This document shows positions 18,501 through 21,500 of a DNA stretch of 42,303 bases, in pieces. How positions within the stretch are numbered: the stretch's first letter is position 1; each line of letters opens with the position of its first letter. The stretch comes from a virus. Lineage: Duplodnaviria > Heunggongvirae > Uroviricota > Caudoviricetes. The DNA is taken from the IMG/VR virus record IMGVR_UViG_2851976983_000005; one strand, written 5' to 3'. The position numbers are program-made.

Positions 18501-21500
18501 AGAGATAGCCGGGCAGCCCGTAAATCTCCTGATTAATATCCGGTTCCAGCAGATGAAAGATGTTGCCCTGCGTAAATTCATAGGGCTGCGTGGTCATGCC
18601 ATACTGCACAAACCAGTAGGTGTCGAGATCCACGCCGCGCCGTGTGTACTTCGCCAGTGCTGGCTCCAGCGAGAGAACGCCGCCGACCCGGTTGGTGCGC
18701 TTTTCCAGATAGGCGTTACCGAACACCAGATAATCCTGGACGAAACGGGCAAAAGCCTGCTGGCTGAGCAGGCGGTGCGGGATATAGGTACTGCTGAGAA
18801 TGTCACGCTTAACGGCAATCGGTGAGCTGTGATGCACGGCGGCGCGATAGGTCCGCGCCAGTCCGTCAAAGCTCACCGGCGGTTCATACCAGCGATCCAT
18901 CTGCACGCATTCCACGTAGTCCAGCAATTCGCGTCGGTCTAACACCGGCACCGGGTCGCCAAAGCTGAACGCCTCTGCCGCAGCACCGCCTGAATTTGCG
19001 TTGTGATATACTGCTGCGCGGTTATTCTTGTTTTTACGTTTGCTCATGCCGCCTGCTCCTTGTCAGTCTGGGGCCATTCGCACATAAACAGCATTTTCCA
19101 GTCCTCTGCTGATAACTCTTTTTTCATGTCATTAAGCCATTCATCATCAAAGAGCGCGGCTCCGGTTGCGAGCGTTGCCCCGGATGCTGCAGCGTCATCA
19201 GCGGTAAAAATCATGCTGGTTGTGCTGTTGCGGGCAATCAGCTTCTTGTATTCCCGCCATGCTTCCGGGCTGGGGCTTGGGGTGGTGTAGTAGGTAGCGT
19301 GATAGCGCGCGTGCATGGACAGGCTTTTGGCGAGCGCAATCATATTTTTCGGGGAGTCCGCCCAGGCATACTCTGACACATAGACGTTTCCATGGAGCGC
19401 GGCGGCGAGACTTTTCGGCCCGATAAAATAAATGACCGCACCGTTAGGTAGTTCCAGATGCGCTTTACCTGATTTTATTTTCCCAAGGTGTGTCCAGGTT
19501 GCGGCCTGATCTATAAAGGCTGACATATAGGTTTTGACTGTCAGGGCGGATGCCGGGGTGCAGCCAAGAAAAATCTGGTTGCGTCCGGTATGCAGTGCAT
19601 CGTTCAGGGCTTCGTAGGCGAAAAAGAAATCCGCGCCAGCCTGATGCATTTTTGTAAGCACACGGTTTCTGCTGCGTGCGCCGCTGTTCCATTCATGCTG
19701 GTAAGCAAAGAAAGGGCGATCTACAGGCAGGCTGGCGGTGGTCATGAGGTTAGTTGGGGTTGAGTGCATCAGAAAATCTCCACAATGTTGCTGGTATTGG
19801 CGGCTTCGCCCTGCAGCGGTTCGTTAAACAGTGCGTGCATCGTTGCCCAGGCCAAATCTGCGTGGCTGGCTTCTTCGCTGCGGCTGGCTTCGTAGGTAGG
19901 TCGGTTGCCGCTGGCGGTGGTGGCCCGGCGGATAGCCATAAAGGACTGCGCAATGTCAGTGTGTCCGGCGTCAAACTCCAGACGGCGGTGGCTGATGATG
20001 TCGTAGGCCTTGAGCACCAGGGCGTTTTTGACGTTGGGGTTGTAGACAAACTCCCGCACGGCAGGAAAGAACGCTTTCACGTTCTCGTAGACACCGTGAC
20101 CGACGCCTGTCGAGTCGATGCCGATATAGGTCACGTTGTACTGCTGCGTCAGTTTTTTAATGGCGTCAGCCTGGGCGCGGAAGTCCATCCCGCGCCACTG
20201 GTGTCGCTCCAGAATGCGGAACTTGCCGCCCGGCACGGTTGGCGGTGCCACCACCACGCACCCGGCGCTGTCACCGTTCTGCGTGCCTTTCGCCGGGTCG
20301 TATCCGATCCAGACTTCGCGCCAGCCAAACGGGCGCAGGGCCAGTGCATTAAAGTCGGTCCAGACTTCCCAACTGTCCACCATGCACGCCTGCAGCTCGC
20401 TGAGCGGAAACACGGACGCGAGATCGTCCACAAACTCGCACATCAGTAGGTTCTGGTATTCGTCCGGGCTGTACTCCATGCGCAACTGGTCGAGGTCGAA
20501 CAGGTTACAGCCGCCGCGCACCGCATCTTCCACAGTGACTATCTGGCGGTACTGTCCGTCAGGGCAGAGCAGGCCGCGCGCAAGATTGCTGTGGGTCAGG
20601 TCAATATCCACCTTGTCCGCTTTGGCGCGGCCCCGGTTAAACAGCGCACCGGACCAGAACGGATAGGCACTGTGGGTCAGGCTGGACGGCGTGGAAAAGT
20701 AGGTTTGTCGCCATTTCTTGTGAATGGCCATCCCGGAGGCAACTTTGCGCAGTTCCTGGAATTTCGGTATCCAGAAATATTCATCAAGGTACAGGTTGCC
20801 GTGGTAGCTCTGCGCCGTACGGGCGTTGGTGCCGAGAAAGTACAATGTTGCGCCATTAGGTAGCACCATAGGATCGCCTTTCAGCTCCACCTCAACTTCT
20901 TTGGCAAAGTCGATGATGTACTGCTTAAAGACGTGCGCCTGTGCCTTACTGGCAGAAAGGAAAATCTGGTTACGTCCGGTAAGCAGGGCGTCAATCAGGG
21001 CTTCACGGGCAAAGTAAAAGGTCGCGCCGATCTGGCGTGACTTCAGCAGGTTGCGGATGCGGTTGGTTTTTCCGGCTTCCCACCAGTGGCGCTGGTAGTT
21101 GAACATGGAGGAATAAAAGATTTCTTCCAGCTTCTCAATCTGTTCATCGGTGAAAACGTTCTTTTCCGGCTGACGGCGCGGGCCTTTGTTGCGGTTGGCG
21201 ACGTTAGGGTTTAAGTCGGCTTCGTTGCCGCCATTGTTAAACTTGCCGATCCGCGCATGGCGCTCCGACTGGCGCGCCAGCAGGTCAATCTCTTTGAAAT
21301 CTTTCCCTTCTTTGTGCTCCTTCATAATGAGCTGGCAGTAGCGTGCGGCGGTGGTGAGCTGCATCTGATCCAGCGGCCCATAGTCACCCCACTTGTCGCG
21401 TTTTTTCCAGCTGTGAACGGTTGCAACTTTCTCGCCCAGCATTTCAGCAATGCGGGCTACGCGGTATCCCTGAAAGTACAGCAGCATGGCCTGCCGACGG

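What the first reader, a model, noticed from the sequence alone, without database searches (positions are those of the whole stretch)
19044..19769. Diverged terminase-ATPase paralog translationally coupled between the terminase and portal genes
Seen in sequence: a 241-aa ORF whose start overlaps the terminase stop (TGATG) and whose stop overlaps the portal start. It aligns with residues ~145-370 of the adjacent 588-aa terminase at roughly 35-40% identity, but has no counterpart to the N-terminal or nuclease regions. Established knowledge: in P2 the terminase and portal genes are adjacent, as I recall, and P4-like satellites hijack P2 packaging. Inference: not a recent duplication or assembly artefact (too diverged, and the terminase is full length). 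Candidates are a dominant-negative or decoy packaging ATPase acting on competing phages or satellites, or an accessory packaging factor.
Basis: partly seen in the sequence, partly recalled or inferred. Interest (0 to 1): 0.7.

Follow-up and report, generated by a model that had tools for sequence, protein, structure and literature searches.

The report
Terminase-like gene W homolog in prophage
The gene between the DNA-packaging enzyme and portal genes of this P2/186-like prophage is a real, selected copy of the packaging enzyme's ATP-binding domain, but it is a distant relative of the long-known, biochemically uncharacterised gene W of coliphage 186, not a new kind of gene.

Summary
A 241-aa ORF (19044..19769, minus strand) lies between the large terminase (TerL, 588 aa) and portal genes. 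It overlaps both (TGATG, ATGA) and matches TerL residues 145-368 at 31% identity (E 2e-32). It has the TerL ATPase fold only.

It is not an artefact and not new in kind. The same terminase–short paralog–portal layout occurred in every locus inspected (about 55). These include coliphage 186, where the ORF is annotated "W protein; similar to Orf12", PSP3 gp2, Yersinia phages and, probably by a separate duplication, Aeromonas phage phiO18P.

The gene is accessory. About 1.5% of E. coli P2-like prophages carry it. Fels-2 has a 98.1% identical TerL and no paralog. A natural 90-aa deletion remnant exists. It is under purifying but relaxed selection (dN/dS about 0.2, against 0.03 for TerL) and diverges much faster than its neighbours.

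One new detail: in this subfamily the Walker A Thr is Asp and the Walker B Asp is Ser/Pro/Gly/Ala, always together.

Best guess (0.5): an accessory nucleotide-binding partner of the phage's own packaging machinery. Decoy and dominant-negative roles are not excluded. Interest is moderate.

The parts
19044..19769 (-). 241-aa stand-alone TerL ATPase-domain paralog (186 gene W-like), middle cistron of the late P-X-Q operon
   Evidence: ORF. BLASTP to TerL E 2e-32. Pfam Terminase_6N only. ATPase fold. 32% identity, E 1e-33, to 186 W. dN/dS about 0.2.
19767..19781 (-). Coupling junction TerL stop / paralog start: GGAG (19778-19781), 8 nt, then TGATG (19767-19771)
   Evidence: Sequence. In Fels-2 the same GGAG...TGATG junction serves the portal gene directly.
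19044..19061 (-). Coupling junction paralog stop / portal start: AAGGAG (19056-19061) inside the last codons (K-E-Q-A-A), then ATGA (19044-19047)
   Evidence: Sequence. The same ATGA overlap occurs in phage 186 W/Orf2 and in all loci examined.
19698..19709 (-). F21-A-Y23-Q24: adenine-binding 'Q motif' upstream of Walker A; F21, Y23 and Q24 are invariant in the 12-sequence alignment of short paralogs and TerL ATPase regions
   Evidence: Translation. Invariant columns.
19629..19652 (-). Deviant Walker A 'KMHQAGAD' (TerL: KSRQIGAT). K40, Q43 and G45 are invariant. Thr->Asp at 47 is fixed in this subfamily. Arg42->His is peculiar to this allele.
   Evidence: Translation. Alignments. Strand 35-40, loop, helix 46-61 in the model.
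19371..19388 (-). Walker B strand 'NVYVSE' (TerL: NLYLDE): Asp->Ser at 132, catalytic Glu133 kept
   Evidence: Translation. Cross-tabulation with the Walker A position.
19275..19295 (-). C (coupling) motif 'TYYTTPS' (TerL: TYFSTPS)
   Evidence: Translation. T159 and S165 invariant, T162 also invariant in the subfamily alignment.
19769..21535 (-). Large terminase (P2 gpP / 186 Orf12 homolog), full length with HTH, ATPase and nuclease domains
   Evidence: Pfam Terminase_5 + Terminase_6N + Terminase_6C. 98.1% aa identity to Fels-2 gpP.
18007..19047 (-). Portal protein (P2 gpQ homolog), last cistron of the operon
   Evidence: Pfam Phage_portal. 86.5% identity to Fels-2 Q.
17983..17998 (-). Terminator-like hairpin ending the P-X-Q operon. 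No sigma-70-like promoter on the minus strand in front of the paralog.
   Evidence: Scan. Phage 186 has an annotated terminator tW at the equivalent place.

Best explanation
The ORF is a functional, late-expressed gene of the prophage. It belongs to the same family as gene W of coliphage 186 and gp2 of PSP3: a stand-alone copy of the terminase ATPase domain, placed as the middle cistron between terminase and portal.

SHOWN:
- Translational coupling on both sides means it is made together with TerL and portal, from the late operon only.
- It keeps the nucleotide-pocket residues: the YQ adenine motif, the P-loop Lys/Gln/Gly, the catalytic Glu and the C motif.
- It lacks the HTH N-domain, the nuclease C-domain and the TerL-specific loop before Walker B. 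It therefore cannot cut DNA or act as a terminase by itself.

INFERRED:
- It binds ATP/Mg2+.
- It acts on the phage's own head-packaging machinery, as an accessory and non-universal partner of TerL and/or the portal that tunes motor assembly or activity.
- In this subfamily the metal-ligand pair is swapped (Walker A Thr->Asp together with Walker B Asp->Ser). This suggests nucleotide binding is kept while hydrolysis chemistry is altered or attenuated.
For: Synteny and coupling:
- The TerL–paralog–portal order, with overlaps, was found in every locus examined: the window, six E. coli, Limnobaculum, Buttiauxella and Pantoea loci, 8 species-representative genomes, 29 IMG/VR contigs, and phages MLG42, 186, PSP3, SI22, YenM_201.16 and phiO18P.
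- No promoter lies in front of it, and a terminator follows the portal gene.

Family link to 186 W:
- The GenBank record of phage 186 names the homolog 'W protein; similar to Orf12'.
- Similarity to 186 W is 32% identity, E 1e-33.
- Shared derived features against TerL are GE.SH.AA replacing GTN.xTAQS, W..[ND]P replacing WIP[KN]F, and the same N- and C-terminal boundaries.

Selection and viability:
- dN/dS is 0.14-0.22 at informative distances.
- Length is conserved at 225-257 aa down to about 30% identity.
- Active-site columns are invariant.
- The Walker A Asp always co-occurs with a non-Asp Walker B residue: 16 clusters Asp/non-Asp, 18 non-Asp/Asp, 0 Asp/Asp; Fisher p = 2e-7, not corrected for phylogeny.
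- Viable isolated phages carry each type: 186 and PSP3 (Thr/Asp), YenM_201.16 (Asp/Gly), MLG42 (Asp/Ser).
Against: - No experiment on any member was accessible. The phenotype of 186 W mutants is recalled from memory (classical essential late/head gene). It could be a polar effect on the coupled portal gene. The 186 record also attaches the gene name W to the portal CDS.
- The gene is dispensable for this kind of terminase. Fels-2 gpP is 98.1% identical and has no paralog. 1242 E. coli genomes match the P-Q region but only 17-20 include the paralog. A natural deletion leaves a 90-aa remnant without Walker A/B.
- It evolves fast: 36-45% identity where TerL keeps 80-84%.
- Alleles recombine freely against nearly identical TerLs and different portals, which argues against tight partner-specific contacts.
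- Catalytic residues drift: Arg42->His here and in phiO18P, Glu->Asp in PSP3.
Confidence: 0.5

Rival explanations
1. TerL mimic used as a decoy or anti-defence protein. It presents the conserved ATPase-domain surface and nucleotide pocket that host sensors (Avs1-3, Upx) or satellite-encoded packaging hijackers read, and titrates them away from the real terminase.
For: - The ATPase domain alone is what EcAvs2 and Upx recognise. T4 has an analogous uncharacterised stand-alone TerL-ATPase-like protein, vs.8, whose authors raise an anti-defence role (PMC13601566).
- The paralog keeps the pocket but has lost the working modules.
- It evolves fast, is patchily distributed, behaves like a cassette in recombination, and seems to have been duplicated again in phiO18P (62% identical to its own TerL).
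- Its production is matched to TerL by coupling.
Against: - Isolated ATPase domains and vs.8 activate EcAvs2 rather than block it, so a mimic would be a liability unless it binds unproductively.
- No defence or anti-defence profile hit.
- If 186 W is truly essential in laboratory strains that lack such sensors, a pure decoy role fails for that branch.
- Nothing here tests binding.
Confidence: 0.15
2. Dominant-negative packaging ATPase. It enters or caps terminase rings of competing P2-like phages or of satellite-directed packaging and poisons them.
For: - It lacks the modules needed for productive packaging, and the conserved TerL loop just before Walker B is replaced.
- The Walker residues are altered.
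Against: - It is expressed only from the phage's own late operon, at the time and place of its own packaging.
- Its own TerL is 98-99% identical to TerLs of paralog-less relatives, so self/non-self discrimination is hard to see.
- P4 uses the helper's own terminase and cos, so poisoning would hit the helper too.
- Relatives with canonical Walker A/B exist (186, SI22).
Confidence: 0.08
3. An ATPase that has left packaging. The domain was recruited for a different late function (for example DNA-end handling, prohead maturation or a chaperone-like step) and only its position is inherited.
For: - The nucleotide pocket is conserved without any terminase-specific module.
- Alleles are exchangeable against different TerL and portal alleles.
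- The Mg-ligand pair is rewired.
Against: - Strict retention between TerL and portal in all of the roughly 55 loci examined.
- No added domain that could supply a new substrate specificity.
- No hit to any other family.
Confidence: 0.1
4. A decaying duplicate kept mainly because its reading frame relays translation from TerL to portal. The protein itself has little or no function.
For: - It is dispensable in most relatives, and truncated forms exist: a 90-aa remnant that still starts at the TerL stop and ends at the portal start, and 152-158-aa clusters.
- The C-terminal codons double as the portal Shine-Dalgarno sequence.
- GC3 is lower than in its neighbours (0.59 against 0.70-0.72).
Against: - dN/dS is about 0.2 over dS up to 0.78.
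- Full length is kept down to about 30% identity in dozens of clusters.
- Active-site columns are invariant, and two sites are coupled in their substitutions.
- Paralog-less phages couple P to Q directly, so no relay is needed.
Confidence: 0.07

Closest known systems
Gene W of coliphage 186 (AAC34147.1; U32222.1 1215..1961), PSP3 gp2 and their Eganvirus homologs
   Same: - Same position (between the P2 P homolog and the P2 Q homolog).
- Same one-base overlap with the terminase stop and ATGA overlap with the portal start.
- Same size (248 against 241 aa) and same ATPase-domain-only architecture.
- 32% identity, E 1e-33.
- Shared derived motifs against TerL.
   Different: - 186 W keeps canonical Walker A (KSRQIGAT) and Walker B (LDE) and more of the segment after the C motif.
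- The window protein has Thr->Asp and Asp->Ser, Arg42->His, and a further deletion of about 25-40 residues there.
- By sequence alone it is no closer to W than to TerL (31-36% for both), so orthology rests on synteny and shared derived motifs.
ATPase domain of the P2-family large terminase (gpP / 186 Orf12; Pfam Terminase_6N)
   Same: Fold, Q motif, lambda-like deviant P-loop (K-x-R-Q-x-G), catalytic Glu, C motif.
   Different: - No Terminase_5 HTH domain and no Terminase_6C nuclease.
- The conserved GTN.xTAQS loop before Walker B is replaced.
- The Mg-ligand residues are swapped.
- It evolves about 7 times faster at non-synonymous sites relative to synonymous ones.
Phage T4 vs.8 (stand-alone TerL-ATPase-like protein; PMC13601566)
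   Same: A phage-encoded, uncharacterised protein homologous to its own terminase ATPase domain and lacking the nuclease domain. Function is an open question.
   Different: - vs.8 is not in the packaging operon, is T4-lineage specific and keeps canonical Walker motifs.
- No sequence comparison with the window protein was possible here.
phiO18_21 of Aeromonas phage phiO18P ('truncated terminase ATPase subunit')
   Same: Same P-X-Q layout and ATPase-only architecture.
   Different: - 62% identical to its own TerL against about 42% to other TerLs, so it is probably a separate, younger duplication or a product of gene conversion.
- Canonical Walker B.
- Keeps the whole ATPase domain.

Membership tests
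Large terminase ATPase domain (Pfam PF03237 Terminase_6N, ASCE P-loop fold) | Significant match to the family profile and the TerL ATPase fold | tested here: met
   49.1 bits against a cut-off of 22. Foldseek best hits are the T4 gp17, D6E and P74-26 TerL ATPase domains, TM up to 0.65.
Large terminase ATPase domain (Pfam PF03237 Terminase_6N, ASCE P-loop fold) | Canonical catalytic set: Walker A ending in Thr/Ser, Walker B Asp followed by the catalytic Glu | tested here: not met
   KMHQAGAD (Asp instead of Thr, His instead of Arg) and NVYVSE (Ser instead of Asp, Glu kept). All 65 full-length TerLs examined have Thr/Ser plus Asp.
Functional large terminase subunit (P2 gpP type) | C-terminal RNaseH-like nuclease domain (Terminase_6C) and N-terminal Terminase_5/HTH domain | tested here: not met
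   Neither domain is present. The protein spans only the equivalent of TerL residues 145-368.
Coliphage 186 gene W family | Cistron between the terminase (P2 P homolog) and portal (P2 Q homolog) genes, overlapping both | tested here: met
   TGATG and ATGA overlaps in the window. TAATG and ATGA in 186.
Coliphage 186 gene W family | About 225-260-aa protein similar to the ATPase part of the adjacent terminase, with sequence similarity to 186 W | tested here: met
   241 aa. BLASTP to 186 W: 32% identity, E 1e-33. Shared derived motifs, linked through intermediate Yersinia and Limnobaculum forms. The NJ tree is unresolved at depth.
Coliphage 186 gene W family | Late gene required for production of infective heads (classical W mutants) | not testable with these tools
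   The primary papers (Hocking & Egan 1982; Portelli et al. 1998) are not held. The phenotype is recalled from memory only, and a polar effect on the portal gene is possible.
P2 cos-proximal anti-phage hotspot cargo (Rousset et al. 2022) | Located between replication gene A and portal gene Q; variable cargo with defence domains | tested here: not met
   The ORF lies between P and Q, not between A and Q. No credible PADLOC hit. The hotspot proper holds a bSEFIR gene at 16539..17972.
TerL-mimicking trigger or decoy of Avs/Upx sensors (as T4 vs.8) | Binding to, or activation of, a terminase sensor | not testable with these tools
   Only the literature analogy is available.

The most novel reading that the evidence does not exclude
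The W-like proteins, and especially the Asp/Ser-swapped subfamily found here, are ATP-binding but catalytically attenuated mimics of the terminase ATPase domain. Their job would be to absorb factors that target TerL (host Avs1-3/Upx-type sensors, or satellite proteins that redirect packaging). That would make them a recurrently evolved, phage-encoded decoy sitting inside the packaging operon.
Probability: 0.15. Interest if true: 0.75.

Novelty: new member of a known kind. Interest (0 to 1): 0.4.

Why it matters
A copy of the packaging-motor ATPase domain, without nuclease or DNA-binding modules, has been kept at one exact spot of the P2/186 packaging operon. It persists across Enterobacterales and appears to have been re-created in an Aeromonas phage, yet most relatives do without it. 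Its biochemical role was not found described in the literature searched here, even though its 186 homolog W is an old named gene.

Working out what it does would show one of two things: how a viral packaging motor can be tuned by a pseudo-subunit, or, less likely, how phages shield their most conserved enzyme from terminase-sensing immunity. The coupled Walker A Thr->Asp / Walker B Asp->Ser exchange is a clean, testable case of an apparent relocation of a metal ligand in a P-loop ATPase.

For annotation: these ORFs are labelled 'terminase large subunit' in many records. They should not be counted as terminases or used as TerL markers.

Tried and rejected
- **Assembly artefact or frameshifted terminase:** rejected. 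TerL is full length, and the arrangement recurs in 17-20 complete E. coli genomes and in isolated phages.
- **Defence-system membership:** rejected. PADLOC and NCBIfam give nothing credible.
- **Sequence search of solved structures:** no hits with the family profile or with TerL. Motif assignment therefore rests on Pfam, the model's strand-loop-helix topology and textbook knowledge of T4 gp17 and lambda gpA motifs.
- **Arginine finger:** I tried to locate it. The Arg in the TerL loop GTNARTAQS is not conserved even among TerLs (Asn in 186 and phiO18P TerL), so no claim is made. Only the loss of the whole loop motif is reported.
- **Counting independent Thr/Asp swaps:** a bootstrapped NJ tree has deep nodes below 25% support, so the number of events is unresolved (1 to several).
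- **Virus structure library (BFVD) search for other stand-alone relatives:** mostly full-length terminases.
- **Literature:** ten full-text searches found no paper discussing a gene between P and Q, or 186 W. The primary 186 papers are not held.
- **Internal promoter for lysogenic expression:** none found on the coding strand.
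Full report
**1. The observation**

The window carries a P2/186-like prophage. It has a 186-type CI repressor, an integrase, replication gene A and the head genes O, N and M.

On the minus strand, three ORFs follow one another:
- a 588-aa large terminase, TerL (19769..21535)
- a 241-aa ORF (19044..19769)
- a 346-aa portal gene (18007..19047)

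The ATG of the 241-aa ORF shares a base with the terminase TGA (TGATG), and GGAG lies 8 nt upstream. Its TGA overlaps the portal ATG (ATGA), and AAGGAG is encoded by its last codons.

BLASTP aligns residues 21-232 with TerL 145-368 at 31% identity (E 2e-32), with one 44-residue gap. Pfam sees only Terminase_6N in the short protein. TerL also has the Terminase_5 HTH domain and the Terminase_6C nuclease.

An AlphaFold model built on 24 homologs (pLDDT 82, pTM 0.83) matches the ATPase domains of T4 gp17, D6E, P74-26, HK97 and Sf6 terminases. Its identity estimate is slightly high for the full length.

**2. Not an artefact, and not unique**

- The exact sequence is in seven complete E. coli genomes, and ten further genomes hold 77-97% identical copies.
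- It is in Escherichia phage 500465-1, and at 95% aa identity in Yersinia phage vB_YpM_MLG42, a deposited phage recorded as coming from a dog anal swab with Y. pestis EV76-CN as host.
- A search of 5.8 billion proteins gave 52 clusters of 225-254 aa, down to 33% identity. All named sources were Enterobacterales.
- A profile search of 1.8 billion representatives found several dozen further clusters of 220-285-aa proteins that match over their whole length. They are interleaved with roughly 590-aa terminases.

**3. Synteny**

In every locus I could inspect, the short gene sits between terminase and portal and overlaps or abuts both:
- Limnobaculum, Buttiauxella and Pantoea
- four further E. coli prophages
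- eight species-representative genomes: Pantoea, Phytobacter, Citrobacter, Yersinia, Atlantibacter, Buttiauxella and Serratia
- 29 IMG/VR contigs

There is no sigma-70-like promoter on the coding strand in front of it, and a hairpin terminator follows the portal gene. It is therefore a late-operon cistron, made together with TerL and portal.

In paralog-less phages such as Fels-2, the same GGAG...TGATG junction couples the portal gene directly to the terminase gene.

**4. The decisive comparison: phage 186**

More distant short paralogs turned up in Salmonella phage SI22 and Aeromonas phage phiO18P. Searching the phage collection with the SI22 protein showed 88-100% identical copies in SW9, PSP3, EtG, Midge, BIS20 and coliphage 186 itself.

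The depositors' record of 186 (U32222.1) annotates:
- CDS 1215..1961 as 'W protein; similar to Orf12'
- Orf12 (1961..3730) as the 'P2 P homolog'
- Orf2 (196..1218) as the 'P2 Q homolog'

PSP3 gp2 is annotated 'similar to 186 W; similar to orf3'. The overlaps are the same: TAATG and ATGA.

The window protein is 32% identical to 186 W (E 1e-33). In a joint alignment, the short proteins share features that TerLs lack:
- the same N- and C-terminal boundaries
- GE.SH.AA in place of the TerL loop GTN.xTAQS just before Walker B
- W..[ND]P in place of WIP[KN]F after it

Yersinia and Limnobaculum forms bridge 186 W and the window type, including a shared 4-residue deletion. I therefore file the ORF as a divergent member of the 186 W family.

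From memory, not verified here: W is one of the classical late genes of 186 defined by conditional-lethal mutants affecting head formation. The primary papers are not held. The GenBank record attaches the gene name W to the portal CDS as well. An amber mutation in W could also act by polarity on the coupled portal gene.

**5. How many origins**

The phiO18P paralog is 62% identical to its own TerL ATPase region but only about 42% to other TerLs. The enterobacterial paralogs are equidistant (31-40%) from all TerLs. A separate, younger duplication (or gene conversion) in the Aeromonas lineage is therefore likely.

Deep nodes of a bootstrapped NJ tree are unresolved.

**6. Accessory status and evolutionary rate**

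- 1242 of 5426 complete E. coli genomes match the P-Q region. Only 20 cover the part holding the paralog: 17 by direct search for this type, and 8 carry the 186 W type.
- The window's TerL is 98.1% identical to Fels-2 gpP, which has no paralog.
- One IMG/VR prophage retains only a 90-aa remnant. It starts at internal Met152, still begins at the TerL stop and still ends at the portal start. Truncated clusters of 152-158 aa also exist.
- Where TerLs are 80-84% and portals 67-80% identical, the paralogs are 36-45% identical.
- dN/dS is 0.18-0.22 for the paralog, against 0.02-0.07 for TerL and 0.05-0.09 for portal. Selection is purifying but relaxed.
- Synonymous distances show recombination breakpoints on both sides. 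Paralog alleles 75% or 94% identical are combined with nearly identical TerLs and with different portals.
- GC3 is 0.59, against 0.72 (TerL) and 0.70 (portal).

**7. Active site**

Invariant in the subfamily, and shared with TerLs:
- the F-x-Y-Q motif
- Lys40, Gln43 and Gly45 of a lambda-like deviant P-loop (TerL KSRQIGAT)
- G-x-N-Q after the first helix (Gly62 and Asn64 invariant throughout; Arg63 and Gln65 invariant in the subfamily only)
- Gly127, Tyr130 and Glu133 of Walker B
- Thr159 and Ser165 of the C motif (Thr162 in the subfamily alignment)

Two positions differ systematically. The Walker A Thr is Asp47, and the Walker B Asp is Ser132.

| Group | Walker A Asp + Walker B non-Asp | Thr/Ser/Asn + Asp | Neither | Asp + Asp |
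|---|---|---|---|---|
| 38 short-protein cluster representatives (<=50% identity) | 16 | 18 | 4 | 0 |
| 65 full-length TerLs | 0 | 65 | 0 | 0 |

Fisher p = 2e-7 for the short proteins, not corrected for phylogeny.

I read this charge-conserving swap of the two Mg2+-site residues as evidence that nucleotide/Mg binding is still selected. This is inference.

Catalysis looks less constrained:
- this allele and phiO18P have His for the P-loop Arg
- PSP3 gp2 has Asp for the catalytic Glu
- some clusters lack both acidic residues

Viable phages carry each type: 186 and PSP3 (Thr/Asp), YenM_201.16 (Asp/Gly), MLG42 (Asp/Ser).

**8. Mechanism**

Shown:
- the protein is a stand-alone TerL ATPase domain
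- it is co-expressed late with TerL and portal
- it is selected, accessory and fast-evolving
- it cannot itself bind portal or DNA the way TerL does, because the relevant modules are missing

Most likely (0.5): an accessory nucleotide-binding partner of the phage's own packaging machinery, the role implied for 186 W.

Rivals:
- **TerL mimic acting as a decoy (0.15).** A 2026 paper shows that EcAvs2 and Upx recognise the terminase ATPase domain alone. It also shows that T4 has an analogous uncharacterised protein, vs.8. But vs.8 and isolated domains activate, rather than block, the sensor (PMC13601566).
- **Dominant-negative poison of competitors or satellites (0.08).** This is disfavoured because the phage's own TerL is nearly identical to those of paralog-less relatives, and because expression coincides with its own packaging.
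- **An ATPase recruited to another late function (0.10).**
- **A decaying duplicate kept as a translational relay (0.07).** dN/dS and the invariant pocket speak against it.

**9. Novelty**

The gene family has been in GenBank since the 186 and PSP3 genomes, and NCBI's annotation pipeline already labels it 'terminase large subunit domain-containing protein'. No paper in the searchable library discusses it.

The window ORF is thus a new, divergent member of a known but functionally uncharacterised family. As far as I could find, three points are new:
- the breadth and strict synteny of the family
- the probable independent duplication in phiO18P
- the coupled Walker A / Walker B exchange

Noticed in passing
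window 16539..17972 (+): 477-aa SEFIR/TIR-domain protein matching the PADLOC bSEFIR defence model (E 1e-102). It lies between replication gene A and portal gene Q, which is the cos-proximal anti-phage hotspot of P2-like phages described by Rousset et al. 2022.
   Followed up: partly
window 13565..15366 (-): IS21-family element: IstA-like 340-aa ORF at 14344..15366 and a 260-aa ORF at 13565..14347. Annotated as IS100kyp-family IstB/IstA fragments in phage 500465-1. It is inserted immediately after replication gene A (11276..13555).
   Followed up: partly
window 15931..16236 (+): DinI-like ORF (Pfam DinI, E 1e-22) in the same hotspot region.
   Followed up: no
window 1..5267: Outside the P2-like prophage: a HEF_HK/HATPase_c histidine-kinase-like protein (1..1719), overlapping a Response_reg_2-domain protein (1703..3469), then a separate tyrosine integrase (3996..5267). 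This may be another island next to the prophage.
   Followed up: no
L001 (NC_049342.1, Escherichia phage 500465-1): The RefSeq record of the near-identical phage annotates the portal, the TIR gene, IstB and the paralog (177 aa instead of 241) as split or shortened CDSs. The window has intact ORFs, so that record probably contains frameshift errors.
   Followed up: partly
L039 3501..3773 (IMGVR_UViG_2851694522_000002): Natural deletion derivative of the paralog: a 90-aa ORF starting at the equivalent of Met152. The same ATGCAC hexamer occurs at the normal start (ATG CAC = M-H) and, in the window's homolog, at Met152-His153; this suggests, but does not show, deletion between short repeats. It still overlaps the TerL stop and the portal start.
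   Followed up: partly
L024 1217..1963 (PSP3 gp2): The 186 W homolog of PSP3 has Asp in place of the catalytic Glu after Walker B (NVYLDDF), although PSP3 is a viable phage.
   Followed up: no
L008 3248..4021 (Aeromonas phage phiO18P, phiO18_21): The short paralog is 62% identical to its own TerL ATPase region against about 42% to other TerLs. This points to a separate, younger duplication or to gene conversion at the same P-Q junction.
   Followed up: partly
NZ_CP049967.1 (E. coli ARL09/232), about 1300566 and about 4269738: One genome carries both an X-type copy (77% nt identity to the window) and a 186 W-type copy, in two different prophages.
   Followed up: no
window 19044..19769 against its neighbours: The paralog has clearly lower GC3 (0.59) than TerL (0.72) and portal (0.70). 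Relative to the 235-aa forms it has a 6-residue insertion (GATLAT) next to a similar GAA stretch.
   Followed up: no
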